Positions 7,094 to 34,995 of a DNA stretch of 64,000 nt are shown here, one piece after another. This DNA is from a virus. Taxonomy: Duplodnaviria > Caudoviricetes. Numbering within the stretch: position 1 is the stretch's first letter; each line of letters begins with the position of its first letter. The position numbers and the translations under genes were made by a program. The stretch lies in IMG/VR virus record IMGVR_UViG_3300032030_000026, positions 1 to 64,000 of that record; one strand, 5' to 3'. The notes under the pieces were generated by a model. It made no database searches. It was not told the origin of the DNA and saw only the letters and a list, made by a program, of their open reading frames with translations.

Positions 7094-7121
7094 CTTAAGT
7101 TTTCCGAATTCCGATTATATA
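7094..7121 (+). promoter_or_regulatory. putative phage promoter
   Basis: CTTAAG-N12-CGATTATATA. Confidence 0.7.
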
Positions 7122-7164
7122 AGATCATAAGAGATAATTTAGTAATCACCAAAAATTTAGAAAA

Positions 7165-9500: not shown

Positions 9501-9541
9501 GTCTTAAAGTTGTCTTAAAGTTGTCTTAAAGTTGTCTTAAA
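9499..9541. repeat. 11-bp tandem repeat, about 4 copies
   Basis: (TTGTCTTAAAG)x3 + TTGTCTTAAA. Confidence 0.9.
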
Positions 9542-9950
9542 TAGCTAAAGTACCGGTATGTATCAAACTAAAATCATCCGGATACTCGAGAAATTCATGC
9601 GGATATTTTATATTGTGCCGAGATATAAATTTCGAAATAGTCTCATTATATCCGTTTGGAGTCCAATAAATATCGCAAATAATATAATTGGCTTTTAATT
9701 TTAATTTTAAAAAATCCCGGCCGGGACCGGTAAATATTAACGCTCCATTTCCATTATTCAATTCACATTGCTTGATAACATGTGTATTAGATAGCGAGCG
9801 TATGGCATCATCAAACAACTCAATATCCGACATTGCATGAGGTACAATTACGTATATATTGTTTTTATCTGCAAATATTTTTGAAAAATTATCTTGTTTG
9901 GCGGAGGATGTTCCTCTCCGGCCTATTATAGATTCGTCAATGTGTCTCAT
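9537..9950 (-). CDS. ESIIG-leader family protein
   Basis: N-terminus MRHIDESIIGRRG. Confidence 0.8.
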   Translation of the reverse strand: MRHIDESIIGRRGTSSAKQDNFSKIFADKNNIYVIVPHAMSDIELFDDAIRSLSNTHVIKQCELNNGNGALIFTGPGRDFLKLKLKANYIICDIYWTPNGYNETISKFISRHNIKYPHEFLEYPDDFSLIHTGTLAI

Positions 9951-10272
9951 TTTCTAGTCTTTTCTTTAATTTAGTGGGCGTATATGTTTTATAAAACACA
10001 TCGAAATTTTCATTTTCTATATTTTTCCAAAATTCATATCCATCCTCCGTGTTTTCCCACGTAAATGCACACATCAGTCCATCATTCCACAACCAGCTTA
10101 TATCAAAATCACCACGTCTAGCCAACAACGCCTCATGTATTATCAGAGTAATAATTTCCAACGGCCATCCTTTCATTTGTCCTTTAACATCTTTTTGGGT
10201 TAAACCATATGGATTAGGCCACAACACCTGCGCTCCTCTCCGCCCTATTATAGATTCGTTGATATGTTTCAT
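9937..10272 (-). CDS. ESIIG-leader family protein, WPNPY subfamily
   Basis: MKHINESIIGRRG; paralog of the next two genes. Confidence 0.85.
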   Translation of the reverse strand: MKHINESIIGRRGAQVLWPNPYGLTQKDVKGQMKGWPLEIITLIIHEALLARRGDFDISWLWNDGLMCAFTWENTEDGYEFWKNIENENFDVFYKTYTPTKLKKRLENETH

Positions 10273-10589
10273 TTTTCAATTATTTCTCTTAATTTTGCGG
10301 GAGTATATGTTTTATAAAACACATTAAATTTTCCATGTGCTATAGAATCCCAAAATTTATGTCCGTCCATTGATTTATTCCAATCAAATGCACAACTCAA
10401 TCCCTCTTTTTGCAGATCTTCTAAACCAAAATTATCTCTGACCAAATATGTTTCATATAATGCTAAAGTTATGATCTCCAATGGCCATCCCTTTATTTGT
10501 CCTTTAGCATCTTTTTGGGTCAAGTCATATGGATTTGGCCACGTGGTTGTTCCTTTCCTCCCTATTATAGATTCTTGTATATGTTTCAT
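10269..10589 (-). CDS. ESIIG-leader family protein, WPNPY subfamily
   Basis: MKHIQESIIGRKG. Confidence 0.85.
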   Translation of the reverse strand: MKHIQESIIGRKGTTTWPNPYDLTQKDAKGQIKGWPLEIITLALYETYLVRDNFGLEDLQKEGLSCAFDWNKSMDGHKFWDSIAHGKFNVFYKTYTPAKLREIIEK

Positions 10590-10909
10590 TCTTCTAGTCT
10601 TTTCTTTAATTTAGCGGGCGTATATGTTTTATAAAACACATCGAAATTTCCGCGATCTATTTTTTCCCAAAATGCATATCCATCCTTCGAGTTTTCCCAC
10701 GTAAATGCACACATCAGTCCATCATCCCATAGCCAGTTTATATCAAAATCACCACGTCTAGCTAACATCGCCTCATGTATTATCAGAGTAATAATTTCCA
10801 ACGGCCATCCTTTCATTTGTCCTTTAACATCTTTTTGAGTCAAACCATATGGATTTGGCCACGTGGTTGTTCCTTTCCGCCCTATTATAGATTCCTTGAT
10901 GTGTTTCAT
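10586..10909 (-). CDS. ESIIG-leader family protein, WPNPY subfamily
   Basis: MKHIKESIIGRKG. Confidence 0.85.
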   Translation of the reverse strand: MKHIKESIIGRKGTTTWPNPYGLTQKDVKGQMKGWPLEIITLIIHEAMLARRGDFDINWLWDDGLMCAFTWENSKDGYAFWEKIDRGNFDVFYKTYTPAKLKKRLEE

Positions 10910-11334
10910 TTCCGGTCAAATGTTTTTGTATAATCTTTCGAATATGGTGAGTTTCCGTTTGCAATTTTTTCTAATATAGTCGTATAGAACGTAATATAAG
11001 AGTCTTTTGGGTTTTTTGGTTTCCATTTCCAGACACCAATAATATCGAATTGTGTGACATCATATGCCCTGCCTGTCTTAAGGTATAAGTCATCATTATA
11101 GTCGCGGAGATATATGAAGTTTTGATCATATGGCGCGCCGCCTTTACGTATAGAAAACAATATTCCGTCCGAATCCCAGCGAGACAAACATCCGGTTATA
11201 TTCCAGGTATCTATGTCTTTAATTACCATTAAATAATCGCCGGCTCTAGTTTTTATAATATCTCTATTCGATAACATTGATTTTTTAAGCAAACTCCCTT
11301 TCCGCCCTATTATAGACTCGCTTATATGTTTCAT
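10906..11334 (-). CDS. ESIIG-leader family protein
   Basis: MKHISESIIGRKG. Confidence 0.85.
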   Translation of the reverse strand: MKHISESIIGRKGSLLKKSMLSNRDIIKTRAGDYLMVIKDIDTWNITGCLSRWDSDGILFSIRKGGAPYDQNFIYLRDYNDDLYLKTGRAYDVTQFDIIGVWKWKPKNPKDSYITFYTTILEKIANGNSPYSKDYTKTFDRK

Positions 11335-11786
11335 AATCTGCTTATGGTTTCTTCGGTTAATATCTTAAATAATATTCCGTTTTTCTTACAGAATTCCATA
11401 GCCGCCGCCCATTTGCTCCGGTTCCGGATGTATTCTTTCCAGGCATATCCATTAGGATCGAATGGTGTCTTGGGGGGAACGGTTTGATTCTTGGGTTTGA
11501 TCTCTATCAATACCTGAGATCCATCTTCCATGATCACAAAAAAATCCGGATAATAACGATGAGATTCTCCATCAAGTTTGTTTATATAGGGTATAGCCAT
11601 GCACTCTGATGCCCAGCTTTTGACTTTATGGGTATTTTCTAACCAATGTATGAATATCTTTTCATAAGAACTCCTATATATTATAGGCTCGCGGGACTGA
11701 GATTCTAGGAGCTTCTTGCAAGAATCCGGGTTTATATACCCTTGCTTGAATCTCTTTTTGGATGGCCGGACTTGCTTGATGTTCAT
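11331..11786 (-). CDS. head completion nuclease, T4 gp4-like (TnsA-type fold)
   Basis: YRSSYE, WASE..IPY, HRYYPDF, IEIKPK.QT, KW.AA..FC. Confidence 0.88.
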   Translation of the reverse strand: MNIKQVRPSKKRFKQGYINPDSCKKLLESQSREPIIYRSSYEKIFIHWLENTHKVKSWASECMAIPYINKLDGESHRYYPDFFVIMEDGSQVLIEIKPKNQTVPPKTPFDPNGYAWKEYIRNRSKWAAAMEFCKKNGILFKILTEETISRL

Positions 11787-12223
11787 AATCTGTCTTTAAA
11801 GTAATTATTATCTTGGAATATTTCCTTGATAGATTTCCCGTTATTGGTCACATGATGTATGATCTTTGTCACATCGAATGCGCCGCATGTATCCGGGATA
11901 CATTTAAGATTATTGACAAACATGGTTTCATGCTGCCAAAAATATAATTTTAATTCTAAATCATATAGAATGATAACACACTCATTTTTATCCAAACACC
12001 CTTTTAAAGTTTTTACGACATATCCGGTTTTTGTCTTATTCACAATTTTCAGACAATCTATAATTTCATCAATTCTGTCGCGAGCCGTACGATTATCCAG
12101 ATATATAGCCGTGCACGTGCCCGGATTGTGCTGGTTGTTTGTCAAAGCCAATACATCCCAGCATTTTGGATATTTGTTATATGTACCTTTCCGCCCTATT
12201 ATAGATTCATTGATGTGTTTCAT
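11783..12223 (-). CDS. ESIIG-leader family protein
   Basis: MKHINESIIGRKG; start reassigned to 12223 (or 12226). Confidence 0.8.
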   Translation of the reverse strand: MKHINESIIGRKGTYNKYPKCWDVLALTNNQHNPGTCTAIYLDNRTARDRIDEIIDCLKIVNKTKTGYVVKTLKGCLDKNECVIILYDLELKLYFWQHETMFVNNLKCIPDTCGAFDVTKIIHHVTNNGKSIKEIFQDNNYFKDRL

Positions 12224-12233
12224 CATATTTGGT

Positions 12234-12668
12234 TTATTTATAACTCCAAATTTCCTGACCGGTTGTTCCAACAGAAGCCATTTTTAGAATTTCGATATCA
12301 GTCTGTATGTTTTTTATATTTTTACGATCAAAAATATCGGGTATATGATTCTTGACATATTCCGGATTAGCCCGCCAGATGCTTGCCACATCTAAATCAT
12401 ATCCTCTGCCCGCCTCGTTGCTGAATTCTAAATTATTGTCGTATTCATAATCTGGAATATATCCCGATCCAAGTAAAACAAATTTAGTTGGGATAGCATT
12501 GTTGCCGAATTTATTACTAGCGTATTTCTGTCTGATTTTTTTATCAAAAACCACTATCCAGAACTCTCCATTCGCGGTTTGAACGATATCAAAATCCCTT
12601 AACAACGATTTCGGATTTGAAAATGATGACCCCTTTCTTCCTATTATAGATTCATTTATATGTTTCAT
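12234..12668 (-). CDS. ESIIG-leader family protein
   Basis: MKHINESIIGRKG. Confidence 0.85.
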   Translation of the reverse strand: MKHINESIIGRKGSSFSNPKSLLRDFDIVQTANGEFWIVVFDKKIRQKYASNKFGNNAIPTKFVLLGSGYIPDYEYDNNLEFSNEAGRGYDLDVASIWRANPEYVKNHIPDIFDRKNIKNIQTDIEILKMASVGTTGQEIWSYK

Positions 12669-12672
12669 AATA

Positions 12673-13098
12673 TTACTTTTTATATAGATAAAATGTTCTT
12701 CCGGCTATATTAACAAAAATTATATCCGCCTTCGCCGGCCTGCAAAACCATCGACCAGATTCTTCAAATTGAAATGCACCACATATATATTCTTGTTGTC
12801 CCTCTCTTCCATAAAGTTCATCAAGATCATTCCAAATTTGCATCCTGAAATTCCTATCACTAATATAACCTTCATAATTATCGGCATTCACGGGTCCGTA
12901 ATCTATCAAGCAAGAGGCTAATTCCCGAAAATCCGATTTTTGCTCAATTTTTTCTAACCACTTATCAAATTTATCAAAATTATTATATAATCCCTTAGCT
13001 TTGAGTTTCTTATCATCGAATATGAGTTCCGATATGAAATATTTCTTTGACGGATAATTTCCTTTTCTTCCTATTATAGATTCATTGATGTGTTTCAT
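12673..13098 (-). CDS. ESIIG-leader family protein
   Basis: MKHINESIIGRKG. Confidence 0.85.
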   Translation of the reverse strand: MKHINESIIGRKGNYPSKKYFISELIFDDKKLKAKGLYNNFDKFDKWLEKIEQKSDFRELASCLIDYGPVNADNYEGYISDRNFRMQIWNDLDELYGREGQQEYICGAFQFEESGRWFCRPAKADIIFVNIAGRTFYLYKK

Positions 13099-13132
13099 AT
13101 TATCTTTAATTGATTAAAAAAATACAACAAAA

Positions 13133-13189
13133 AACAAGCGATCTTCCGGTCGGATATATAAATGGTCATCCTATAGAAGATCGCTTGTT
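13133..13189. repeat. intergenic palindromic element (CGATC family)
   Basis: 14-bp perfect inverted repeat AACAAGCGATCTTC/GAAGATCGCTTGTT; relatives at 31252, 47494, 61498. Confidence 0.75.
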
Positions 13190-13207
13190 ATACGGAGGAT
13201 ATGAGCG

Positions 13208-14389
13208 TTATTTTACATATTTTATACAAGCGGCACAATCATATGCGGACTTGGATTTCTCATTCGGCATCTTGGTAATCTTGATCTTGCCGGATTGGAA
13301 TAGATCCCAAAGGCTATCCGGATTCAGTTTAGATTCTCCGATATTGATGTAATTCATGTTCGGATCCACTATCACAATCCGGTTAAAGCCTTCTACCTTA
13401 TAATATAGGAACATGTTTATAACACCATATATTATATTAGCATAATTATTGTCGCAGTTCCGGATCTGATCATGAGAGAGATGCTTATTGAGGAAATTTG
13501 TCACTTCCATTATGGTATTAGCATCGGACACACCCCAATAAGTACAGAATGCTTCCGCCAGAGCTTCTTGTAATCTGGTGCCCGGATTGTCTTCCAAATA
13601 AGAAGATATGCGCTGTAAAAACTCCTTGAAGGTACCTATCTTATTGAAGATCTCACCTTCCTCAAAATGATCGAATTTAGTATCAATCAGTCTTCTCAGG
13701 ACAAATTCGTCTTCCTTAGACCATTTATCCAGATACTTGTTAATGACATTCCGGAATTCTACGATAGATGCCGGAGACGGATAGTTATGAGACTTGCATC
13801 GGGGATCGGACTGGGCTTTGGTCTTGGAAGAAGCCTTCAGCTCTATGCCGATATTCTGTCCGAAGACATCTCCGTTTTTATGTGAAGATGGTACATTGGC
13901 ATTGATAGCATCATCGGAAAGGATCCGGAGCAAATACTCATAGTGCCCGACTTTCAGACCACCGGCCTGATTGTATTGGGCAATAGTCTTCAATGAACTG
14001 TCGCTGAACTGTATAGGATCTCCATTCTTGTCTTTCAGGTTAGCGAAGAGGTCCGGAATCCGGCCTTCGGTAATCCGGTTTGGAAATACGTCTTTCAGGG
14101 ACTTCCGATTGTGATTTTCCGGATCTATATAGCGGATGAACTCGATCAAGTCGTCGTTCTTCTCGAACCGATATAGAATATCTTCAATGATATCTTTGTT
14201 TTCTATTCCGTGATTCTTGAACCACTCTGATATGATATCTTCCATCCCTTCCGGATCGGATGATTTGATGATAGAATATATCCGGCGGAGCTTCTCCGAC
14301 TTGACCTTAGGTGTGCTGTTTAAGATATATTGCCGCAGATCGTTGTCCGATAGGGATATAGCTTCAACTAGGTAATTATACAATGACAT
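13208..14389 (-). CDS. hypothetical protein, possible PD-(D/E)XK nuclease fold
   Basis: VGHYEYLL ... GDV-x6-IELK. Confidence 0.5.
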   Translation of the reverse strand: MSLYNYLVEAISLSDNDLRQYILNSTPKVKSEKLRRIYSIIKSSDPEGMEDIISEWFKNHGIENKDIIEDILYRFEKNDDLIEFIRYIDPENHNRKSLKDVFPNRITEGRIPDLFANLKDKNGDPIQFSDSSLKTIAQYNQAGGLKVGHYEYLLRILSDDAINANVPSSHKNGDVFGQNIGIELKASSKTKAQSDPRCKSHNYPSPASIVEFRNVINKYLDKWSKEDEFVLRRLIDTKFDHFEEGEIFNKIGTFKEFLQRISSYLEDNPGTRLQEALAEAFCTYWGVSDANTIMEVTNFLNKHLSHDQIRNCDNNYANIIYGVINMFLYYKVEGFNRIVIVDPNMNYINIGESKLNPDSLWDLFQSGKIKITKMPNEKSKSAYDCAACIKYVK

Positions 14390-14418
14390 TTTTTTTTATT
14401 TTATTTTACATTTTCTTA

Positions 14419-16272
14419 TTAGAAACCAAATTTATTCCTATATATACCATGCAGCTGGTTTAAGGCGGCGAAGGTGCCGGTGAGCTTCATGACCCGGCCT
14501 TTATAGGTGAATACCACGCCTTCGACGGCACTCAGATTCTTATCCCCAATCCGTTTGATCTGAACCAGAGTCTTATTGATAGCATCCGGATCGTTACTAT
14601 CTAATATAGCGGTCCAGGCGTTCAACATATCTTTTCTTAGTACATCCGTTACATAGCGCTCGCAGTTAGCATTGATAAATCCATCGCATATCTTCATAAA
14701 GTCTATGCCTATGCCCATGAATAACTCATCAAGAGGTTCCATAACTTTTTGGACATATTCCTTTCCGGGTCCCTTAAGTTCTTCATAATGATCAGGATAT
14801 ACTTTCTTTAATTCCGTGACTCGAACCGTTTTGTCATCATTGAACCATCTATTGAAGATCACACCTACCATCTCGGTCATCCATTGTGGCTTGACTTCCT
14901 CAAATTTTTTCTTCTTCCAGTCTTCCAGTGTTGTATTAAGATCTAAATCTAAGTCTTTATATAGTTTTTTAATACCATCAATATATTTTTTCTTATAACT
15001 TTCGGTATCCTCCATAGTCTTGATAATGATATCGGGGCGCGGAGCTACTCGACCGGCATATACTCCGGTATTTACGATATCATATATATCTTCCACGTGC
15101 CCTTCTACTTTCCGGTATTCTTCCCACCCATTCTCACCTTTTTTGTAAATCACATAACCATGAAAAGCTACCATATCACTAGCATATATCATTACATTGG
15201 TCTTGCCGGAGGTGATACATTCGCAATTGATGACTTTCCTGGTATCCGGTCTTGGATTGAAATATCGGGTTCCTAGCTGTGAGAATATGCCGCGAATAAT
15301 CTCTCCGGCTTTCACAAATACATCCCGGACTCTCGGATTCATAGCCCATTTGTTAGCCATATCCTCGATAGTCATGCCGCCTTGTTCGGAGTTTAGGTCC
15401 GACTTATTGCGGATGAATACTACTTCGCCGTCTTCATTCATGGTGGCATATATGTTAGTGCCATCCAGCTTTTCCTTGACATGTTCTATCTTGCCGGAGA
15501 ATAAGGTTCCGACAAGGTTGCAAAGATCTTTGCCGGTAAGCTCAGTGTAATCATAAGGGTGTGCCATATGTCCGGCGGCGCCGCCTTCCAAGATCATATT
15601 CAAGTAACCTCTCAGGCTTCTAGATTCTTTTATACCACCCTCCAAGTCTCTCAAGAACCTTCCAAAAGCATCACAGAACTCTCCGAACATGCCGCCTGTC
15701 CCTTTAGGCATCATCTTTTCGAACGCGGATTGATTTTTCTCTAATATAGATTTCCGAACCAATGAGCCGCTCACACTAGAGCTCCTGCCGGAACCGATAT
15801 TGGGTTCTAACTTGCCTTCCAATTCCGGAAAGCTCTTGATGAGTGTCTTATATTTTTCAACTCGGTCGTCTCCGCACATCAGATATTGAGGTTCATATTC
15901 GTCATCCTTGACTTTGTTATTGAAATCTTCTACAGCCTCATAGGCATTTTTGACATAGACAATATCTATTATATCTTTTTTATAGTTTCTCTTGACTATA
16001 TCTAATTCTTTTTCAATAAGATCATTAGAAAACGGCCGTTTCAGGATTTCTTTTTCTCTTTCGGTGAGATCTCCTTTGCCGGTCCTGGCAAATTCCGATA
16101 CTCTTTCTAATTCCTGCTTGGATATTTTCTTGCCTTTGATCTTAGAAGGATCCCTGTCCGAAGAATTGATTCTATATATAATACAAGGTAGCTCGCCTTC
16201 CAATATCATATTGAGATGACCTTGAGTAAACGGTTGGAACCGACCTATGGTTATATTTACTTTCTTTGACAT
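14419..16272 (-). CDS. cytidyltransferase-like domain fused to a ligase-like nucleotidyltransferase domain
   Basis: GRFQPFTQGH and CGDDR; then GGAAGHMAHPYD, EKLDG, EGVVF, MKL. Confidence 0.75.
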   Translation of the reverse strand: MSKKVNITIGRFQPFTQGHLNMILEGELPCIIYRINSSDRDPSKIKGKKISKQELERVSEFARTGKGDLTEREKEILKRPFSNDLIEKELDIVKRNYKKDIIDIVYVKNAYEAVEDFNNKVKDDEYEPQYLMCGDDRVEKYKTLIKSFPELEGKLEPNIGSGRSSSVSGSLVRKSILEKNQSAFEKMMPKGTGGMFGEFCDAFGRFLRDLEGGIKESRSLRGYLNMILEGGAAGHMAHPYDYTELTGKDLCNLVGTLFSGKIEHVKEKLDGTNIYATMNEDGEVVFIRNKSDLNSEQGGMTIEDMANKWAMNPRVRDVFVKAGEIIRGIFSQLGTRYFNPRPDTRKVINCECITSGKTNVMIYASDMVAFHGYVIYKKGENGWEEYRKVEGHVEDIYDIVNTGVYAGRVAPRPDIIIKTMEDTESYKKKYIDGIKKLYKDLDLDLNTTLEDWKKKKFEEVKPQWMTEMVGVIFNRWFNDDKTVRVTELKKVYPDHYEELKGPGKEYVQKVMEPLDELFMGIGIDFMKICDGFINANCERYVTDVLRKDMLNAWTAILDSNDPDAINKTLVQIKRIGDKNLSAVEGVVFTYKGRVMKLTGTFAALNQLHGIYRNKFGF

Positions 16273-16287
16273 ATATTGTAAGTTTCT

Positions 16288-16641
16288 TTATATTATTCCG
16301 TTTTTGACAATTTTTTCTAATTCGTTTTGTGTATATGTGGGAAATTTTAAAGATATATTAGGTAGTTGTGAAGTTTTGAATATCTTAATCACATCAATGT
16401 CCCGGTCAAATAAACATTTTAGATTTTTATCAAAGTTCCTAATATCGCAAAGATATACGTCTTCACAAAAACCGGTACATATATTTGCATTTCCAAAAAA
16501 GTCCGTAGTCATAAACATCCTATACTCTCCGTTTCTCCACTGCACTATATCACCTTCATCCAGATTCTCTTTCCGGGGAAGAGCTTTCGTGATCCCACCA
16601 TTTCCTTTTTTTCCAATTATAGATTCGCTTATATGTTTCAT
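16288..16641 (-). CDS. ESIIG-leader family protein
   Basis: MKHISESIIGKKG; ATG 16641. Confidence 0.8.
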   Translation of the reverse strand: MKHISESIIGKKGNGGITKALPRKENLDEGDIVQWRNGEYRMFMTTDFFGNANICTGFCEDVYLCDIRNFDKNLKCLFDRDIDVIKIFKTSQLPNISLKFPTYTQNELEKIVKNGII

Positions 16642-16703
16642 TAACAAATTTTCAATTGATTAAATAATATATTGTATAACTGAAAACATATGCCCGGTAA
16701 CTG

Positions 16704-16714
16704 TATTTTTTATA
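16704..16714 (+). promoter_or_regulatory. putative late promoter TATTTTTTATA
   Basis: Exact copies at 33347, 46194 and 51167 (minus strand), all just upstream of starts. Confidence 0.45.
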
Positions 16715-16729
16715 CATAAAACGTTTATA

Positions 16730-19708: not shown

Positions 19709-19719
19709 ATAAAAAAAAT

Positions 19720-24576: not shown

Positions 24577-24869
24577 TTTATGTAATGAATATATTAACTC
24601 CCACTCGTCAAGGGGATGCATATGACCTGGTAGCCATTAATAAATTTCCTATAATCTATAAAACATCTAGGAAACCGGATGATTTTTTATATGATAAATG
24701 CATGATAGAACAAATGGAAAAAGTAATTCTCAATAAAACTACAAGAGATCATGCAATTCTATATATAAGAAGCATAAATGAAGATATGTCTTTTAATGAT
24801 TATGAATATTCAGTTAAGAATATTTTAGAAATTTTTAATAAAAACGAAAAATATGGCAAAAAAGAGTGA
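24573..24869 (+). CDS. hypothetical protein
   Basis: ATGA overlap with upstream gene. Confidence 0.55.
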   Translation: MIYVMNILTPTRQGDAYDLVAINKFPIIYKTSRKPDDFLYDKCMIEQMEKVILNKTTRDHAILYIRSINEDMSFNDYEYSVKNILEIFNKNEKYGKKE

Positions 24870-25467
24870 ATATACTCCAAAAGATCTTATGGATGATATT
24901 TTTGGAGGAGATGATCTTCCCATGGATAATATGGAAGATGTATATACTATAGATACCGATCTTATTAATAAGGAGAGCAATATTATGGCTACTTCTTTAA
25001 TATCTTCGGTGTTGCGGCTATACAACAATAAAGAATTTGTGGACGAGCACCCGGATTTTAAAAAGAGAATAGATACGGAAATAGAGTCTTTGAAGAGAAT
25101 GTATAAGATGATCAAGACGGATGAGATTGTCCATGATCATCTGGTGCAGGCAATATCCAAGAATCCGGGCAATGCTTCTTTATATATGTCTATGACCAAA
25201 TTGCAAGAAAAAATTTCCTCACTGGACGGTGATATCAAACGCATTCTGGATGGACTGAATAAGATATGTGCCAATTATCAGATGGAGCTCAATTTTGAAC
25301 AGACTCGGAAGGCGTCAGATGATGAATCCGCTTATGACGAGACGGGAGTGATTACTCGGGGAGGCAAAGCATTTGTGGATATGATGAAGGGAGATTCTTT
25401 AGTAAGAGAACCCGAGTTGTTTGATAATGAAGAATATCAAGAAGAAGAAATTGAAGATGATGAATAG
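24853..25467 (+). CDS. hypothetical protein
   Basis: 204-aa helical ORF with acidic tail, followed by a terminator. Confidence 0.7.
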   Translation: MAKKSEYTPKDLMDDIFGGDDLPMDNMEDVYTIDTDLINKESNIMATSLISSVLRLYNNKEFVDEHPDFKKRIDTEIESLKRMYKMIKTDEIVHDHLVQAISKNPGNASLYMSMTKLQEKISSLDGDIKRILDGLNKICANYQMELNFEQTRKASDDESAYDETGVITRGGKAFVDMMKGDSLVREPELFDNEEYQEEEIEDDE

Positions 25468-25512
25468 GTGAACAATAATTGTAAGGAACCGTAATAAGTT
25501 CCTTTTTTTATA

Positions 25513-25540
25513 CTTAATAATTCGACAAATTGTTTATATA
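25513..25540 (+). promoter_or_regulatory. putative phage promoter
   Basis: CTTAAT-N12-TGTTTATATA. Confidence 0.55.
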
Positions 25541-25545
25541 ATAGC

Positions 25546-25656
25546 ATGGAAGAATACGATAACTTTTTTGAAGAAGATTTTGAGTACCTTGATGAAGGCC
25601 ACATTCCGCAAAAGCCGGAATCAGAATGGTTTGAAGATGATAGTTTTGAAATATAA
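25546..25656 (+). CDS. 36-aa highly acidic peptide (absent from ORF track)
   Basis: MEEYDNFFEEDFEYLDEGHIPQKPESEWFEDDSFEI directly after the promoter motif. Confidence 0.55.
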   Translation: MEEYDNFFEEDFEYLDEGHIPQKPESEWFEDDSFEI

Positions 25657-25682
25657 AAAACCTTTTTAAATCCAAACCACCT

Positions 25683-25859
25683 ATGGAAGAAATTAAAAAT
25701 ATTTTAGGCGACTCATTTGATGAATTTATGGGGATATTTAAATCCATCATCTACAGCGACAGACATCCATTTGACCAGTATTCCGAATTGGAAAATCTTT
25801 TATTTGATTATGGATTAGAATTAGATTATTTAGAAACATTGCTTTCTAATGCATTTTAA
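25683..25859 (+). CDS. 58-aa acidic hypothetical protein (absent from ORF track)
   Basis: MEEIKNILGDSFDEF...LFDYGLELDYLETLLSNAF. Confidence 0.6.
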   Translation: MEEIKNILGDSFDEFMGIFKSIIYSDRHPFDQYSELENLLFDYGLELDYLETLLSNAF

Positions 25860-25902
25860 TTTTTCCAAAATTTAGTTTATATTAATTCAAAATTATACTA
25901 TT

Positions 25903-26532
25903 ATGTTAATTAGAAAACAATACAGCATCGAGATGGGACATCTGGTCCGGAATTGTTCTTCGGAGAGATGCGCTTTCTCTCAACATGGGCACTCTGCTAT
26001 TATAGAAGTAATTCTGAGCGCAAGTGCATTGGATAACGCCGGAATGGTTTATGATTTCGGCCTGATGAAAGGCACCATCAAGCAATTTATTGATTCTTTT
26101 GACCATTGTTACGTTTTTTGGAACAAGGAATCGGAAGAATTCAAAAGATATATCAAGAAATTCAACCGCCGGTGGATAGAAGTAGACTTCAACCCCACCG
26201 CCGAGAACTTAGCATTGTTCTTCCACGGCTGGATAGAGTATATTCTTTCTAAGACCAAGATGAACAATAATGAGAGCCCCGATCTACATGTAGCTTCCGT
26301 CATTTATCATGAGACCGCCACCGGATATGCCCAGACGGAGTATGGTGATGTAGATCTGATTTATAAAAACCAAGTCGGAGAACATATTGATCCTAGATTG
26401 AAAATGTCTGATATTTCGGAACACGTCGCCAAAGATTGGTCTGATGATCTTAAATTAATCATGCATCATCGTAACATGGATTATGGTAAAGTTGTAGATA
26501 ATCCGATCCCGTTCCATCAAATTGAAAATTAA
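25903..26532 (+). CDS. queD: 6-carboxytetrahydropterin synthase QueD
   Basis: H.VRNC.SERC..S.HGHS, GMVYDFG, FDH, NPTAEN, HET. Confidence 0.9.
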   Translation: MLIRKQYSIEMGHLVRNCSSERCAFSQHGHSAIIEVILSASALDNAGMVYDFGLMKGTIKQFIDSFDHCYVFWNKESEEFKRYIKKFNRRWIEVDFNPTAENLALFFHGWIEYILSKTKMNNNESPDLHVASVIYHETATGYAQTEYGDVDLIYKNQVGEHIDPRLKMSDISEHVAKDWSDDLKLIMHHRNMDYGKVVDNPIPFHQIEN

Positions 26533-26561
26533 AAAAATATTAAATTAAAAATTTATAAAAT

Positions 26562-27488
26562 ATGAACAATTTAGATAATTCTTTATTTGAAAGTGTATGT
26601 GCTCTTCTGGGTATCGATAAAAAAGCGGTCGAAGAGTACTTAAAAGATCCCATGTCTAATATGACTTGCGATGTAGAACAAAAAGCTCCGGCGGAGACTC
26701 CCGTAATTGATCACGATGATCTGCCAAATCGTATGAACCCCGGTGGTAAGTCCGATAATCAGCTTAAAGCGGAAGGCTGGAAACTATCCGAAGATTTTGA
26801 AAAACGTGAGGACGGAGCTTATGTCTGCAAGAGAATCTGGACAAAATCCGAAAACCCCGGCGACCGCAAGTGTAAATGTGATTGTCAAGAAGGGCAACCG
26901 GATATTTCTGACGCCCGCTTGAAATCCGATTTGCTTACGGTGGACGGCTGGATGGACGTAATGAACTGGGCTTTGCTCCATAATTGGAGCACTATGAAAA
27001 TCGCCATGAATGAGAAGTTTCCGAACAATAAAGACGAAGTGGAGTCCGTCTTGAAATTTGTTAACATGGCACTGGAGGACACCGTCGAGTATCAGATCCC
27101 GGTCACATCTATCTGGAATAAATTTTCTTCTAAAAATGCTTATTCATGTGCGGAAGTCCTAGATCATATCATTCGTGACGTTATTGAGTCGATTAAAGTG
27201 AATGAAACAAATATAGTCACCGACATGAATAAGCTTTGCCCGGAAGCCCGCAATACACTTATCTGCAGACTGACTAAGTATAAATCGCTGTTAGATAGCG
27301 AAATGAATAAGATTATTGATTACACCGACAATATCGAGCCGCAATATCATCATATGAACATCATGACTCCATATATCGAATCCTCCCCGTATGCAATGAT
27401 TCTTCTTTGGGTATCCCTCATCACGGAATATCTTGCGGAACTGATTGAGATTACCAATAAGATTCTTTCAGCTAACAAGGTCCTTTAA
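26562..27488 (+). CDS. hypothetical protein
   Basis: 308-aa ORF between queD and queC. Confidence 0.7.
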   Translation: MNNLDNSLFESVCALLGIDKKAVEEYLKDPMSNMTCDVEQKAPAETPVIDHDDLPNRMNPGGKSDNQLKAEGWKLSEDFEKREDGAYVCKRIWTKSENPGDRKCKCDCQEGQPDISDARLKSDLLTVDGWMDVMNWALLHNWSTMKIAMNEKFPNNKDEVESVLKFVNMALEDTVEYQIPVTSIWNKFSSKNAYSCAEVLDHIIRDVIESIKVNETNIVTDMNKLCPEARNTLICRLTKYKSLLDSEMNKIIDYTDNIEPQYHHMNIMTPYIESSPYAMILLWVSLITEYLAELIEITNKILSANKVL

Positions 27489-27552
27489 GGACCTTTTTTT
27501 TATAAATATTCTTAAGAGAACTTATATATTAACTTATAAAATTCCATAAAAT

Positions 27553-28299
27553 ATGAAAAAAGACATTCAATTTGACAAACAAGCGGTAATCAGTTTCTCC
27601 GGAGGCATGGACAGCACTTGTCTGATGATGCATCTTCTCTCTAAAGGATACAAGGTCAATGCCTATAGCTTCGATTATGGACAGGCACATGCCGTAGAGC
27701 TCCGTCTTGCCAAGAAGAACATCAAGTATCTGCAAAGCCTGGGACTGCCGGTAGAATATCAGATCATCAACCTCCGGGACGTATTCTCCGGCGATACTAG
27801 CACGCTGGTAAGACACGAGAAATCGCCGGAAGGAGATTATAGAGAAGAATCCATGAAAAGTACCGTTGTAGCTAATCGCAATGTAATTTTCAGTTCCGTA
27901 ATTTTCGCTAAAGCATTAAGTTTAGCTAAGACCATCGGACAAAATGTATTGATTTCACTAGGCGTACATGCCGGTGATCATGCCATTTATCCGGATTGTA
28001 AGGAAGAATCCGTTAATATGGCTCGCGAACTGTACCGTATTTCCAATTGGGATTCCGAGCTAGTGGAATACGATGCTCCGTTCGTGAATATCAACAAATC
28101 GGGGGTGCTTAGCAAGGGACTGGAGGCAATGAAGAATTTAGGTATGACCAAATCTCAGATCAATAAAGTGCTCAAAAACACCATGTCTTGCTATAATGCA
28201 ACTCCGGATGGGAAGGCATGTGGCAAGTGCGGGACGTGCACGGAACGAATAGAGGCATTTCGAGATAACGGAATAAAAGATCCAATCCAATATGTTTAA
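27553..28299 (+). CDS. queC: 7-cyano-7-deazaguanine synthase QueC
   Basis: SGGMDS, FDYGQ.H, NRN, YPDC, SCY...CGKCGTC.ER. Confidence 0.95.
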   Translation: MKKDIQFDKQAVISFSGGMDSTCLMMHLLSKGYKVNAYSFDYGQAHAVELRLAKKNIKYLQSLGLPVEYQIINLRDVFSGDTSTLVRHEKSPEGDYREESMKSTVVANRNVIFSSVIFAKALSLAKTIGQNVLISLGVHAGDHAIYPDCKEESVNMARELYRISNWDSELVEYDAPFVNINKSGVLSKGLEAMKNLGMTKSQINKVLKNTMSCYNATPDGKACGKCGTCTERIEAFRDNGIKDPIQYV

Positions 28300-28351
28300 T
28301 ATCAAGACCTCTTCGGAGGTCTTTTTTTATTTTTTAAAAAAATATCATATA

Positions 28352-28753
28352 ATGAAAACATTAACGGAATCTATAATAGGGAAGAGAGGAAATTCGGCTA
28401 AATACACGAAAATACCCGGAACCCTGGAATGGTATTTCCGTAACCGGGATTACCATATAGATCGACACGAAATCGGTGATAATTGGTATGTGATGTATAA
28501 CGACAAAGCCGTATTGTTCTGGCATCCGGATGCAATGTGGTATCCTTATTTCTTCAAAAATGACAATCATTTATGGAAATATGCCTGGTCTCTAGTCGGG
28601 TCCGGATCTATTTCATATGTAGGGCCGGAAGAGGCTTATAACGACATAATGATGAGATTTGATGAATTCCTCCAGGATGGGCCTACCGTTCCATATTTGA
28701 CGGAGATAAAAATACCGGATAAAGTCAAGAATATTTTAAAGACAATGAAATAA
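28352..28753 (+). CDS. ESIIG-leader family protein, W.P.A..YPF subfamily
   Basis: MKTLTESIIGKRG; start reassigned to 28352. Confidence 0.8.
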   Translation: MKTLTESIIGKRGNSAKYTKIPGTLEWYFRNRDYHIDRHEIGDNWYVMYNDKAVLFWHPDAMWYPYFFKNDNHLWKYAWSLVGSGSISYVGPEEAYNDIMMRFDEFLQDGPTVPYLTEIKIPDKVKNILKTMK

Positions 28754-28761
28754 AACATATC

Positions 28762-29220
28762 ATGAAACATATCAGTGAATCTATAATAGGTAGGAAAGGA
28801 TCCGCAAATAGAACTATTATACACATACCAGGTACTATAGAATTTTTATATGAGGTGGACAGTCTTTCTAATCCGATGAATGGTTGGAAAGCCGCGGATA
28901 AATGTGATGATTGGTATTTACTGGTGGATCAAGAAAAATTGATAGTGATGTTATGGTCTCCGAACGCCAATTATTTTCCGTTTCTTTATACGGATGATGA
29001 TTGGAAATGGAACTTTAACAGAAGTTGGAATTTAGCCGTAAAAATCTTACCGGAATTGAAAGGTGTTAATAGTCCAAGCATGATGCATGATCTTATAAGC
29101 GATGCCGACCACTGGGATAAATATACGGCTAAAAAAGCTATTACGAATGTTTCGATAGAAATGCCAAAAGCAATTGAAAAGCTTATTCGCGATAAAGCGG
29201 GCTTGCATTTTTGGAAATAA
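28762..29220 (+). CDS. ESIIG-leader family protein, W.P.A..YPF subfamily
   Basis: MKHISESIIGRKG. Confidence 0.85.
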   Translation: MKHISESIIGRKGSANRTIIHIPGTIEFLYEVDSLSNPMNGWKAADKCDDWYLLVDQEKLIVMLWSPNANYFPFLYTDDDWKWNFNRSWNLAVKILPELKGVNSPSMMHDLISDADHWDKYTAKKAITNVSIEMPKAIEKLIRDKAGLHFWK

Positions 29221-29239
29221 TGGAAATAATGATAAGTAT

Positions 29240-29680
29240 ATGAAGACATTGCAAGAATCTATAATAGGGAGGAAAGGCATTCCGAGATCATTGACGAATG
29301 GATATACTATAAGTATACCGCGTATCAAAACTCTTAAATATGAAAAGACGGATGGTAGCTGGTCATATGATGATAAATGTATCGGATGGTATTTAATGAT
29401 GGATCACGAGAAGTCGACTATAATGTTATGGTCTCAAAAAGCCACTTATTATCCATTTATTTATGCAAGGGATATTATTTTTGATGGTTTCATGGGTAAT
29501 TGGAATTTAATGCCGGGTAAACCTAATATATCTATTGATGAAATATATGATATTTTAGATTCCGACGCCGAAACCTGGAATGATCTTGATCTTGTATGTG
29601 ATAGTATAACTAATATTGAAATAAATTTACCATCGGGAATTGAGTCACTAATCAAAGATTTTTATAAAAACACCAAATAA
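29240..29680 (+). CDS. ESIIG-leader family protein, W.P.A..YPF subfamily
   Basis: MKTLQESIIGRKG; start reassigned to 29240. Confidence 0.8.
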   Translation: MKTLQESIIGRKGIPRSLTNGYTISIPRIKTLKYEKTDGSWSYDDKCIGWYLMMDHEKSTIMLWSQKATYYPFIYARDIIFDGFMGNWNLMPGKPNISIDEIYDILDSDAETWNDLDLVCDSITNIEINLPSGIESLIKDFYKNTK

Positions 29681-30006
29681 TGAGAGCACTCAGCGAATCT
29701 ATAATAGGAAAGAAAAACACCCAATCCAGGTCGGCTTGGTATAACAGAGAATCTAAATTATCCCGAGATGAAATAATCGGAGATATTATGTGTTGTATAA
29801 GCAACATTCAAAGCAACGGTAATTATCTGCGTGGATTAAAGGATCCGGAGGCTAATTATGCCGAATACGTTGCGGATATTCTAAATATTGCAGCCAGGTG
29901 CAAAGACAAAAAAATATCGGATATGGCTAAAAAGTACTTACATAATTCTCCCGATGAAGAGCTTTTTGATGGGGTAATTGCCATATCACAATTGCTAGGA
30001 ATTTAA
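29680..30006 (+). CDS. ESIIG-leader family protein
   Basis: MRALSESIIGKKN. Confidence 0.8.
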   Translation: MRALSESIIGKKNTQSRSAWYNRESKLSRDEIIGDIMCCISNIQSNGNYLRGLKDPEANYAEYVADILNIAARCKDKKISDMAKKYLHNSPDEELFDGVIAISQLLGI

Positions 30007-30019
30007 GCTATAAAAAATC

Positions 30020-30403
30020 ATGAAACATATTAACGAATCTATAATAGGGCGAAAAGGAACTCCTCTGCAGGATTGGCATACCGGGGATCTTGTATATATG
30101 AACATTAATGGCCCCAATATACCCGGAAATTATAATTATGTCTGGCTTTATTTAGATAAATATGAAGCTAAAAGACGGATGGATGAGTTCGAATCAAACG
30201 CTCATTTACAAAAAAAAATTCAAGAAGGAAAATCCGTATTTATACAGCCTGGTGCAATCAGGAGCAATTATAAATATGTTGGGCAGGCTTCGGAAAAATT
30301 TTTATCCAATTTTGCACAGGAACTGATTAGGATGGGTCGGTTGAAATTGGATCCTAAAAAAACTATACAAGAAAATTTAGAAGAAAACAATTACGGGCTA
30401 TGA
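30020..30403 (+). CDS. ESIIG-leader family protein
   Basis: MKHINESIIGRKG. Confidence 0.85.
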   Translation: MKHINESIIGRKGTPLQDWHTGDLVYMNINGPNIPGNYNYVWLYLDKYEAKRRMDEFESNAHLQKKIQEGKSVFIQPGAIRSNYKYVGQASEKFLSNFAQELIRMGRLKLDPKKTIQENLEENNYGL

Positions 30404-30822
30404 AACACATTCAAGAATCTATAATAGGCAGGAAAGGATCGAAAAGCAAATTTCTCCACATTCCCGGCAAGATAATGCTTAGATACGAAAAAGATGACCG
30501 TAGTTGGGACGGCAATGATTATTGTGGTGGGTGGTATGTATTCACCAATCCCGAAGAACAAATACTATTATTGTGGTCTCCGGAAGCGACATATTACCCA
30601 TATTTTCACTATGATACTACATCTAGTTGGAATCAAATAAAAACCGAAACTTGGGATTTATTAGAGGGAGTACCCGATATAAAAACACCGGAAGATGCGT
30701 ATGTTATTATAACAGATATAGATAAATGGAATGAGGCTGTTGTATATGCCACAATTTTTAGTGTTTATATAGATATACCGGATAATGTCATACGAGATAT
30801 TCGCAGATATACCGGATTATAA
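30400..30822 (+). CDS. ESIIG-leader family protein, W.P.A..YPF subfamily
   Basis: MKHIQESIIGRKG. Confidence 0.85.
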   Translation: MKHIQESIIGRKGSKSKFLHIPGKIMLRYEKDDRSWDGNDYCGGWYVFTNPEEQILLLWSPEATYYPYFHYDTTSSWNQIKTETWDLLEGVPDIKTPEDAYVIITDIDKWNEAVVYATIFSVYIDIPDNVIRDIRRYTGL

Positions 30823-34525: not shown

Positions 34526-34669
34526 ATGCAACCGAAACTCGGACATATAATGGAATCAGTGAAATGGCAACAGAAAAGCTCTTTAAGAGCCCGCCTGAGT
34601 GTGCCATGTCAAAATTTGGAAGACAATTATGTTTTCTTTATTGGCAAATCCGCTGAAAATTCCCGATGA
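34526..34669 (+). CDS. 47-aa putative leader peptide upstream of the tRNA island
   Basis: MQPKLGHIMESVKWQQKSSLRARLSVPCQ...; lies between a promoter-like TATTATATA and a terminator. Confidence 0.35.
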   Translation: MQPKLGHIMESVKWQQKSSLRARLSVPCQNLEDNYVFFIGKSAENSR

Positions 34670-34708
34670 AGGTCCGGGGAGGGAAAACAAGATATACAAA
34701 ATATAACG

Positions 34709-34744
34709 ATAAGGCCTTCATTTAGAGGGCCTTATTTTTTTTTT
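34709..34744 (+). terminator. intrinsic terminator or attenuator
   Basis: ATAAGGCCTTC ... GAGGGCCTTAT followed by T10. Confidence 0.8.
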
Positions 34745-34765
34745 GACAAAAAAGTGAGAAAATAC

Positions 34766-34835: not shown

Positions 34836-34860
34836 AGAAGATCATAGATATAGTAAGATC

Positions 34861-34954: not shown

Positions 34955-34995
34955 ATCATAGAAGAATCGGAGTGAAAAGGTGAATACTCCGAGAT

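What the first reader, a model, noticed from the sequence alone, without database searches (positions are those of the whole stretch)
9537..30822. Fifteen otherwise diverse small proteins share one 13-aa N-terminal tag (MKHIxESIIGRKG): candidate capsid-targeted cargo system
Seen: nine minus-strand genes (9537-13098, 16288-16641) and six plus-strand genes (28352-30822) begin M-[KR]-[HTA]-[IL]-x-E-S-I-I-G-[RK]-[KR]-[GN]. They then diverge into at least three domain families plus singletons of about 105-152 aa, mostly packed with overlapping or near-abutting stop/start codons. Established: T4 internal proteins carry a short N-terminal capsid-targeting sequence removed by the gp21 protease after Glu in an (I/L)-x-E site, and IPI* is an injected restriction inhibitor. 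Inference: MKHIxE is a packaging and cleavage tag, and the array is an expandable set of injected effectors, possibly counter-defence. The cluster surrounds the gp4 head-completion gene and appears to lie downstream of late-type TATTTTTT(T)A motifs.
Basis: partly seen in the sequence, partly recalled or inferred. Interest (0 to 1): 0.9.

Follow-up and report, generated by a model that had tools for sequence, protein, structure and literature searches.

The report
Capsid-targeting-like tag on many phage proteins
An uncultured giant phage from the sheep gut puts the same 13-residue peptide at the start of about a fifth of its genes, most likely as an address label that loads these small, fast-evolving proteins into the virus head, as phage T4 does with three proteins; loading itself has not been shown.

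Summary
All 15 ORFs begin M-[KR]-x-[IL]-x-E-S-I-I-G-[RK]-[KR]-[GN] at the stated coordinates (0.04 expected by chance). The 115-kb contig has 21 such genes. Three sister contigs from the same sheep-gut sample bring the total to 106 copies, about 18% of genes.

The peptide is under protein-level selection. It is disordered in an AlphaFold model. It sits on at least four unrelated body types, one of which is usually untagged elsewhere.

The lineage has T4-type head genes: portal, gp4, S77 protease and gp23-like capsid protein. The variant MKTLQESIIG shares 6 of 10 residues with the T4 capsid-targeting sequence MKTYQEFIAE and carries an (I/L)-x-E motif. The closest cultured relative, phage PAU, has 19 genes with an analogous tag, including its annotated scaffold and internal capsid proteins.

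The capsid-loading reading is therefore the best supported. Packaging, cleavage, injection and counter-defence remain untested.

Three things are new here: a second conserved half (SIIGRKG), near-fixed codons (GAA TCT ATA ATA) that remain unexplained, and signs of recombination at the tag.

Follow-up agents of this scan reported similar tag systems on other phage DNA. I rate this a new variant of a known kind.

The parts
9537..9950 (-). tagged gene (MRHIDESIIGRRG), 137 aa, orphan body
9937..10272 (-). tagged gene, 111 aa, WPNPY-family body
10269..10589 (-). tagged gene, 106 aa, WPNPY-family body
10586..10909 (-). tagged gene, 107 aa, WPNPY-family body. It is mosaic: the linker just after the tag matches 10269-10589 and the rest matches 9937-10272.
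10906..11334 (-). tagged gene, 142 aa, GD[IV][IV]..NG.Y superfamily
11331..11786 (-). untagged gp4-type head closure / head completion gene. Its start and stop overlap the neighbouring tagged genes by 4 nt.
   Evidence: phrog_218, E 1.3e-40; 38% identity to PAU gp134
11783..12223 (-). tagged gene, 146 aa, orphan body
12234..12668 (-). tagged gene, 144 aa, GD[IV][IV] superfamily. In the AlphaFold model the body is folded (pLDDT 80) and most of the tag scores pLDDT below 50.
12673..13098 (-). tagged gene, 141 aa, first gene of the minus-strand cluster
13108..13124 (-). T-rich promoter-like motif (TATTTTTTTAATCAATT on the minus strand) upstream of the cluster. A near-identical motif stands upstream of the portal gene.
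16288..16641 (-). tagged gene (MKHISESIIGKKG), 117 aa, GD[IV][IV] superfamily
16653..16668 (-). T-rich motif ATTATTTAATCAATTG upstream of the tagged gene at 16288-16641
28305..28351 (+). terminator-like hairpin after queC, followed by the T-rich motif TTTATTTTTTAAAAAAA upstream of the plus-strand cluster
28352..28753 (+). tagged gene (MKTLTESIIGKRG), 133 aa, IPGT..WY family
28762..29220 (+). tagged gene, 152 aa, IPGT..WY family
29240..29680 (+). tagged gene, 146 aa, IPGT..WY family
29680..30006 (+). tagged gene (MRALSESIIGKKN), 108 aa, orphan body
30020..30403 (+). tagged gene, 127 aa, orphan body
30400..30822 (+). tagged gene, 140 aa, IPGT..WY family

Best explanation
The 13-residue N-terminus is this lineage's version of the T4 capsid-targeting sequence. 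It is a disordered, modular address peptide that docks small proteins onto the scaffolding core of the assembling prohead, so that they are enclosed with the DNA. It carries a T4-type (I/L)-x-E site at residues 4-6. The lineage's gp21-type protease probably cuts there, leaving S-I-I-G-R-K-G as the new N-terminus. About 58 genes per ~245-kb genome would use it, if G000 and G002 are halves of one phage, which was not shown. New cargo appears to arise or be exchanged by recombination at the tag. Shown: the tag's existence, its fixed N-terminal position, protein-level selection on it, its modularity and disorder, and the T4-type head genes in sister contigs. Also shown: the analogous tag set in phage PAU and the sharing of a promoter-like motif with head genes. 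Inferred: docking, cleavage after Glu6, packaging, ejection, and any effector role.
For: (1) There are 106 copies in four contigs. The amino acids at positions 2, 4, 10, 11, 12 and 13 are kept through many synonymous or conservative codons, which points to selection on the peptide.
(2) The tag is N-terminal in 104 of 106 copies and is never internal in G000.
(3) 102 distinct tagged proteins fall into 48 BLAST clusters. An iterated HMM merges 47 of them into one superfamily. The WPNPY, IPGT..WY and GNAT bodies are separate types.
(4) A profile of the WPNPY body finds 482 representatives. Of the best 150, 128 have no recognisable tag, so the tag is an add-on.
(5) AlphaFold (pLDDT 80, pTM 0.77) folds residues ~19-144. 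Tag residues 1-3 and 8-13 score below 50.
(6) Portal phrog_213 and gp4 phrog_218 are on this contig. Peptidase_S77/phrog_207 and Gp23 are above cut-off on sister contigs. Tagged genes lie directly upstream of the protease, and an 8-gene tagged array lies directly upstream of the capsid gene.
(7) The T4 CTS is MKTYQEFIAE (PMC8442874). MKTLQESIIG matches 6 of 10 residues. T4 processing uses an I-x-E site (PMC9026906).
(8) PAU (portal 36%, protease 44%, capsid protein 34% identical) has 19 forward-strand genes starting MK[TS][LI]xx[LI][YF]E, with 0 in the controls. They include the annotated scaffold gp152 and 'internal capsid proteins' gp142 and gp154. Three tagged genes precede its gp4 homologue, as here.
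(9) The protease-scaffold fusion has the highest [LI]xE density of all proteins of 120 aa or more (4.9 per 100 aa overall; 6.4 in its scaffold-like C-terminal part; 1.3 on average).
(10) Heads of tagged clusters carry the T-rich motif seen at portal, terminase and protease genes in 6 of 10 cases, against 25 of 122 other genes. None of the 10 carries the other promoter class, against 28 of 122.
(11) No replication or nucleotide-metabolism enzyme, and not the capsid protein, carries the tag.
Against: There is no proteomic, structural or expression evidence. The RNA-library contigs cover the region evenly and say nothing. The protease and capsid genes are on sister contigs, not on this 57%-complete contig. 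The bodies are not basic (median pI 6.0, only 13% above 8.5), unlike the T4 internal proteins. The T4 cut site lies at residues 8-10; here residue 10 is an invariant Gly, and the strongest conservation lies after the proposed cut. Related lineages have only the second half (M-[ASPG]-L-I-x-K-K-N) with no Glu, so that half must work without T4-type cleavage. Four tagged genes follow a sigma-factor gene in one run, which may not be late. A tag on 18% of genes would mean an unprecedented number of head cargo species. [LI]xE enrichment is expected in any Glu-rich coiled coil.
Confidence: 0.55

Rival explanations
1. The tag is a docking or recognition peptide for some other common partner, not the prohead. 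The partner could be a phage or host hub protein, or a modifying enzyme that serves many substrates through one shared leader. The free N-terminal segment [SA]-hydrophobic-hydrophobic-x-basic-basic would be the functional unit.
For: The most conserved part (SIIGRKG) lies after the putative cut. Other lineages carry only this half, directly after Met and always with a small second residue. Tagged genes are spread over the whole genome and not only in the head module. An earlier scan finding (e1-127136) tied a different phage tag to a radical-SAM enzyme rather than to the capsid.
Against: No enzyme or other gene is consistently next to the tagged clusters. Their neighbours are RtcB, QueC, QueE, NrdA, the capsid gene, the protease and gp4. 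This reading does not account for the resemblance to the T4 CTS, the PAU scaffold and internal-protein tags, or the shared T-rich upstream motif.
Confidence: 0.2
2. The conserved stretch is mainly a nucleic-acid element: a translation-initiation cassette, an RNA-binding or cleavage site, or a recombination junction for shuffling gene cassettes. On this reading the peptide is largely a by-product.
For: Codons 6-9 are almost fixed as GAA TCT ATA ATA: 105, 98, 102 and 100 of 106 copies, against genome codon shares of 72%, 28%, 43% and 43%. Ile4 in the same tag uses all three codons at background rates. Third positions of G10, R11 and G13 are purine-biased. The 11-mer TCTATAATAGG occurs only in tags. 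One paralogue is a mosaic with a breakpoint just after the tag. Neighbouring genes with unrelated bodies share the tag subtype more often than chance (58% against 30%, permutation p 0.004). Prefix duplications occur.
Against: Positions 2, 4 and 10-13 keep the amino acid through many different codons, so the peptide itself is selected. The element is locked in frame and to residue 1. It is not a class-A promoter by PWM. No antisense partner was found. No conserved RNA structure or accessibility difference was found. Abundant proteins such as the capsid protein lack it. This rival can be true in addition to the main explanation.
Confidence: 0.1
3. The shared N-terminus is only the slowly evolving end of one large, rapidly diverging paralogue family, inherited by descent and with no addressing function.
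For: An iterated profile joins 47 of the 102 tagged proteins into one superfamily. The genes lie in tandem arrays typical of duplication.
Against: The same tag heads the WPNPY domain, a GNAT acetyltransferase and other unrelated bodies. The WPNPY domain is widespread and mostly untagged elsewhere. The tag is disordered and outside the fold, yet far more conserved than the fold.
Confidence: 0.08

Closest known systems
Phage T4 capsid-targeting sequence (MKTYQEFIAE) of internal proteins IPI/IPII/IPIII, with the variable internal-protein genes of T-even phages (Mullaney and Black 1996; Repoila et al. 1994, as cited in PMC3012670, PMC9026906 and PMC8442874)
   Same: A short N-terminal peptide shared by otherwise unrelated small proteins. 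The phage has T4-type portal, gp4, gp21-type protease and gp23-type capsid genes. The tag shares M-K-T-x-Q-E-x-I with the T4 CTS and holds an (I/L)-x-E motif. The bodies are highly variable.
   Different: There are about 58 tagged genes per genome (if G000 and G002 are halves of one phage) rather than 3-5. The tag is 13 residues with an invariant second half (SIIGRKG) beyond the putative cut. The I-x-E motif lies at residues 4-6, not 8-10. The bodies are mostly acidic or neutral, not basic. The codons of the core are nearly fixed. Packaging and cleavage are untested.
N-terminal MK[TS][LI]xx[LI][YF]E set of Sphingomonas (Sphingobacterium) phage PAU, GenBank JQ362498
   Same: It is the closest cultured relative by portal, protease, capsid protein and gp4. 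It has 19 tagged small genes clustered around gp4, the portal, the protease and the capsid gene. Three tagged genes precede the gp4 homologue. The host is in Bacteroidota (PMC3738902).
   Different: The tag is different and shorter and ends in a canonical L-x-E. It is carried by the scaffold itself. No body-level homology to the tagged proteins here was found. I found no open-access description of the PAU tag set.
Propeptide-bearing ejection and inner-body proteins of phiKZ-like giant phages (SPN3US, 201phi2-1; PMC5694885)
   Same: Many head-internal proteins are processed by a gp21-related protease after Glu. Paralogues share conserved N-termini.
   Different: Their propeptides are mostly 80-130 residues long and are not one short universal tag. 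The cut motif is A/S/G-x-E. That phage group is unrelated to this one.

Membership tests
T4-type capsid-targeting sequence (CTS) / internal-protein system | The peptide sits at the extreme N-terminus of the precursor | tested here: met
   104 of 106 copies start at residue 1. The other two have a duplicated or extended prefix. No copy in G000 is internal.
T4-type capsid-targeting sequence (CTS) / internal-protein system | A short peptide shared by otherwise unrelated proteins | tested here: met
   There are 48 BLAST clusters and at least four unrelated body types. The WPNPY domain is mostly untagged elsewhere.
T4-type capsid-targeting sequence (CTS) / internal-protein system | The phage encodes a gp21-type (Peptidase_S77) prohead protease and a gp23-type capsid protein | tested here: met
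   Both are absent from the incomplete own contig. Both are present above cut-off on sister contigs G002 and G003, which carry the same tag. That these contigs belong to the same phage type is an inference.
T4-type capsid-targeting sequence (CTS) / internal-protein system | An (L/I)-x-E processing site at the end of the tag (T4 residues 8-10) | tested here: inconclusive
   An [IL]-x-E motif is present at residues 4-6, followed by Ser. Residue 10 is Gly. The scaffold-like protein has about 4-5 times the average [LI]xE density. Cleavage was not observed.
T4-type capsid-targeting sequence (CTS) / internal-protein system | Sequence similarity to MKTYQEFIAE | tested here: inconclusive
   6 of 10 residues match for MKTLQESIIG and 4 of 10 for MKHINESIIG. 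The stretch is too short for statistics.
T4-type capsid-targeting sequence (CTS) / internal-protein system | Proteins are present in the virion with the tag removed, and are ejected with the DNA | not testable with these tools
   There is no isolate and no proteome. The RNA and DNA contigs are uninformative.
T4-type capsid-targeting sequence (CTS) / internal-protein system | Expression together with head genes | tested here: inconclusive
   Cluster heads share the T-rich motif with portal, terminase and protease genes (6 of 10 against 25 of 122). None has the other promoter class. A gp4 gene overlaps its tagged neighbours by 4 nt inside one tagged cluster. No transcript data are available.
T4 internal proteins in the narrow sense (basic, DNA-associated) | Highly basic mature proteins | tested here: not met
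   The median body pI is 6.0, and 13% of bodies are above 8.5.
Shared leader recognised by one modifying enzyme (RiPP-like or radical-SAM-linked tags) | A dedicated enzyme gene consistently next to the tagged genes | tested here: not met
   The neighbours differ from cluster to cluster. The radical-SAM genes present are an NrdG-type activase and, by its N-terminal sequence alone, a QueE-like protein that no family search confirmed.

The most novel reading that the evidence does not exclude
The tag is a two-part pro-signal. The prefix MKx[IL]xE is removed by the T4-type head protease inside the prohead, exposing a free S-I-I-G-R-K-G N-terminus. Sister lineages obtain the same kind of neo-N-terminus simply by methionine removal from M-[ASPG]-L-I-x-K-K-N. 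On this reading the exposed basic peptide, not the prefix, is the working part, for instance for holding on to DNA or for exit through the tail. The nucleotide-fixed core serves as a recombination joint, so that any small gene can be plugged into a roughly 60-member injected-protein repertoire.
Probability: 0.2. Interest if true: 0.85.

Novelty: new variant of a known kind. Interest (0 to 1): 0.65.

Why it matters
If the tag loads proteins into the head, this phage group delivers dozens of different small proteins into the host with its DNA. That is far more than any studied phage. These orphan proteins would then be prime candidates for first-minute host takeover or anti-defence functions in rumen and gut Bacteroidota. 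It would extend the T4 capsid-targeting principle to a whole clade of giant Bacteroidota phages, PAU included. It would give a simple sequence rule for predicting virion cargo in metagenomes. It would also offer a compact natural tag for packaging foreign proteins. The fixed codons and mosaic genes further suggest a built-in way of swapping cargo genes.

Tried and rejected
- Promoter hypothesis for the fixed nucleotides. A PWM built from 38 upstream TTATATA sites (class A) scores the tag core at only about the 99th percentile of genome positions. Rejected.
- Antisense partner. The reverse complement of the core has no good match elsewhere in the window beyond the tags themselves.
- RNA structure. 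Base-pairing probabilities around the start codon are the same in 52 tagged and 237 untagged genes, and the core has no conserved pairing partner.
- Expression. Contigs from two metatranscriptome runs and one DNA run cover the 20 kb evenly. Joints occur at the repeated tag, as expected from assembly. Nothing can be said about timing.
- Function of the bodies:
  - Pfam and PHROGs give almost nothing for 58 tagged proteins, apart from one GNAT and a short match to phrog_16354.
  - The ESM Atlas gave no usable hit.
  - The first AlphaFold model was poor (pLDDT 54).
  - The good model of the GD[IV][IV] family has no Foldseek match. VIA-align gives only weak, repeated NlpC/P60-like rows (best Z 5.3, below the tool's noise level), and the family has no conserved Cys or His.
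- Megablast of a large structural gene against GenBank phages found nothing.
- LR756500, the closest portal match, shows no tag family near its portal.
- The resemblance of IIGRKG to the KH-domain GXXG loop is recalled from memory only. Pfam reports no KH match, and related lineages have N-K-K-N instead, so I dropped it.
- Repoila et al. 1994 could not be read.


Full report
**What is there**

A degenerate back-translation of ESIIG[RK] hits 15 times in the window, against 0.04 expected. Every hit lies five codons after an ATG.

The window is the first 64 kb of a 115-kb IMG/VR virus contig (G000), estimated 57% complete. The whole contig has 21 tagged genes, and no copy lies inside a protein.

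In IMG/VR the tag is found only on three more contigs from the same sample: G001 (110 kb), G002 (130.5 kb) and G003 (55 kb). In JGI metagenomes, multi-copy contigs come from only a handful of related samples. Public runs that hold the stretch are sheep-gut metagenomes.

G001 is a close relative of G000, with a 97% identical portal. G002 and G003 carry different genes and share no DNA with G000 apart from the tags. They probably represent the other half of the same kind of genome.

G002 has 37 tagged ORFs. A genome of about 245 kb would therefore hold about 58 tagged genes, roughly 18% of its genes.

**Peptide or nucleotides**

Across 106 copies, positions 2, 4, 10, 11, 12 and 13 keep the amino acid, or a conservative K/R or I/L swap, through many different codons. 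This shows selection on the peptide.

On top of that, codons 6-9 are almost fixed as GAA TCT ATA ATA:

| Codon | Copies of 106 | Genome share of that codon |
|---|---|---|
| GAA (Glu6) | 105 | 72% |
| TCT (Ser7) | 98 | 28% |
| ATA (Ile8) | 102 | 43% |
| ATA (Ile9) | 100 | 43% |

Ile4 in the same tag uses ATA, ATT and ATC at background rates. Third positions of Gly10, Arg11 and Gly13 are purine-biased. The 11-mer TCTATAATAGG occurs nowhere outside tags.

I could not explain this second layer. It is not the class-A promoter. It has no antisense partner in the window. It forms no conserved RNA structure.

Recombination at the tag is the best lead:
- Gene 10586-10909 is a mosaic whose linker matches one neighbour and whose body matches another.
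- Adjacent genes with unrelated bodies share the tag subtype (HI, TL or SI at residues 3-4) in 58% of pairs, against 30% for random pairs (p 0.004).
- Prefix duplications occur.

**The tag is modular**

The 102 distinct tagged proteins have a median length of 134 aa and fall into 48 BLAST clusters. An iterated profile merges 47 of them into one divergent GD[IV][IV]..NG.Y superfamily. The WPNPY family, the IPGT..WY family, a GNAT acetyltransferase and several singletons are separate.

A profile of the WPNPY family finds 482 representative proteins in public data. The best 150 split as follows:

| N-terminus | Number of 150 |
|---|---|
| Related full tag, MKxLxE-[AS]-hydrophobic-hydrophobic-x-[KR]-K | 11 |
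| The same but lacking the Glu | 2 |
| Second half only, directly after Met (M-[ASPG]-L-I-x-K-K-N) | 9 |
| No recognisable tag | 128 |

In one 184-kb contig, four tandem paralogues show both forms side by side. Three start MKTLKE-ALF[NS]KKNL and one starts M-ALFNKKNL.

Closer homologues, down to 46% identity, all keep the tag, so it is far better conserved than the body.

AlphaFold, run on a 46-sequence alignment, folds residues ~19-144 of 12234-12668 with mean pLDDT 80 and pTM 0.77. Tag residues 1-3 and 8-13 score below 50. The tag is a floppy extension, not part of the domain.

**What kind of phage**

This contig carries:
- a T4-type portal (phrog_213), a large terminase and a sigma factor;
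- a gp4-type head closure gene inside the minus-strand tagged cluster;
- 36 tRNA genes.

The portal is closest to uncultured huge phages, to Sphingomonas phage PAU and to the Prevotella Lak phages.

Sister contigs G002 and G003 encode two further T4-type head genes:
- a Peptidase_S77 / phrog_207 head maturation protease, 471 aa, fused to a coiled-coil region with five EKWIVEEYSPE[IV] repeats;
- a gp23-type capsid protein of 629 aa.

In G002 a tagged gene and a tag-like gene (MKTITESILD...) lie directly upstream of the protease. An array of eight tagged genes lies directly upstream of the capsid gene.

**Comparison with T4**

The T4 capsid-targeting sequence is MKTYQEFIAE. It is cut off once the protein is in the head (PMC8442874). 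Residues 4 and 7 matter for targeting, and residues 8 and 10 for processing (PMC9026906). T-even internal proteins are diverse and share only this peptide (PMC3012670).

The common variant MKTLQESIIG matches 6 of 10 residues. Positions 4-6 form an (I/L)-x-E motif followed by Ser.

Two further observations fit retained (L/I)-x-E specificity, though neither proves it:
- The protease-scaffold fusion has the highest [LI]xE density of all proteins of 120 aa or more in G000 and G002. It has 4.9 per 100 aa overall and 6.4 in its C-terminal part, against a mean of 1.3.
- The capsid protein has I-K-E-G at residue 38 in its unaligned N-terminal region.

Glu-rich coiled coils are expected to be rich in this motif anyway.

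**The PAU parallel**

This is the strongest new evidence. PAU infects a Sphingobacterium (PMC3738902). Its identities to this lineage are: gp4 38%, portal 36%, protease 44% and capsid protein 34%.

PAU has 19 forward-strand genes that begin MK[TS][LI]xx[LI][YF]E, with none on the reverse strand or in the control pattern. They include gp152, annotated scaffolding, and gp142 and gp154, annotated internal capsid protein. Several continue with K-L-N-E-[AS], a motif also present near the N-terminus of the PAU capsid protein. Three tagged genes precede the PAU gp4 homologue, as in this window.

I found no open-access paper that describes this PAU tag set.

**Expression**

Two promoter-like motif classes are enriched upstream of genes:
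- Class A, cGATTATATAAT, starts mostly about 26-36 nt before the ATG, mainly at enzyme genes and small ORFs.
- Class B is a T-rich TTATTTTTTA type. It stands before the portal, terminase, protease, the 992-aa protein and other large genes.

| Gene set | Class B | Class A |
|---|---|---|
| Heads of tagged clusters | 6 of 10 | 0 of 10 |
| Other genes | 25 of 122 | 28 of 122 |

The motif before 12673-13098 (TATTTTTTTAATCAATT) is nearly the same as that before the portal gene. This fits co-regulation with head genes. The timing of either class is not known, and the RNA contigs gave nothing.

**Weighing**

The capsid-loading reading explains the fixed N-terminal position, the modularity and the disorder. 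It also explains the T4-like head genes, the T4 and PAU resemblances, the neighbourhood and the shared upstream motif.

Against it:
- There is no virion evidence.
- The bodies are not basic (median pI 6.0).
- The number of cargo species would be unprecedented.
- The strongest conservation lies after the proposed cut, and whole lineages carry only that half.

The last point suggests that the second half does the real work and the prefix is an optional pro-piece. In the prefix-less forms the second residue is always A, S, P or G. By the established methionine-aminopeptidase rule, Met removal would then expose the same kind of N-terminus that a cut after Glu6 would expose here. That is inference only.

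I put the capsid-targeting reading at 0.55. I put another common partner at 0.2, a mainly nucleic-acid element at 0.1 (it may coexist with the main reading) and plain descent at 0.08.

**Novelty**

The principle is known from T4. Four things differ here: the scale, the two-part tag, the fixed codons with signs of recombination, and the occurrence in a clade of Bacteroidota giant phages.

Follow-up agents of this scan reported comparable tag systems on other phage DNA (e1-5340821, e1-5756321, e1-5684659, e1-5344537). I did not test those. First-stage notes on this same genome reported the six extra tagged genes and the DNA-level conservation (e1-5945471, e1-5945441). I confirmed both.

Noticed in passing
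G000 genome 102397-103785, minus strand (= L003:6397-7785); outside the window: A 462-aa sigma-70-type factor (phrog_351) begins MKSFTEQILE. That is close to the T4 CTS MKTYQEFIAE, including I-x-E at residues 8-10. It heads a run that contains four tagged genes. It could be a packaged sigma factor.
   Followed up: partly
G000 genome 98028-98420 (L003:2028-2420), G002 35512-35973, window 43899-44168: A looser class of N-termini (MK[ST][IL]xESI...) lacks the GRKG part. One sits on the ORF right after the portal and another on the ORF right before the protease. 8 of ~250 untagged ORFs match M[KR]x[ILFMVY]xE, against 11 of 1761 internal Met positions.
   Followed up: partly
whole G000 and G002; e.g. 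window 45739-45765 and 7100-7130: Two distinct promoter-like motif classes were seen: cGATTATATAAT, starting mostly about 26-36 nt upstream of the ATG and often after a terminator hairpin, and a T-rich TTATTTTTTA type. They appear to split the genome into two regulons.
   Followed up: partly
L035:17102-18517 (G002 36102-37517): The head protease is fused to a long coiled-coil, scaffold-like region with five tandem EKWIVEEYSPE[IV] repeats. It has the highest [LI]xE density in the proteome.
   Followed up: partly
window 34996-43882: ARAGORN tRNA genes, including tRNA-Ile(UAU), which reads the ATA codons fixed in the tag. Two calls have aberrant anticodon loops. No tRNA-Ser was called.
   Followed up: no
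window 9937-10909 and proteins P0015-P0164: The WPNPY/KYG[IL]T.KDL.G..GFP.E[IV] body is a widespread domain not in Pfam, with 482 representatives. It also occurs as up to nine repeats in proteins of 2184 and 4007 aa.
   Followed up: partly
JQ362498.1 (phage PAU), e.g. 100248-113735: 19 PAU genes share the N-terminus MK[TS][LI]xx[LI][YF]E, including the annotated scaffold and two 'internal capsid proteins'. The open-access papers searched do not appear to describe this.
   Followed up: yes
G000 genome about 112500-115073 and G002 1-1400: Collagen-like Gly-x-x repeat coding sequence lies at the end of one contig and the start of the other. The assembly may have broken there.
   Followed up: no
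window 33372-34472: An HNH homing endonuclease gene (phrog_12434, phrog_314) lies just before the tRNA array.
   Followed up: no
G002 63519-63977 and L105:11012-11350: Tags with a duplicated prefix (MKHIS-KSITE-SIIGKKG; MKTLKEAL-LKEAL-FNKKNL) occur in two different lineages.
   Followed up: no
L035:15612-16049 (G002 34612-35049): A 145-aa protein matching phrog_858 (labelled in PHROGs as a starvation-inducible transcriptional regulator) lies just upstream of the tagged gene and the protease. It has the second-highest [LI]xE density.
   Followed up: no
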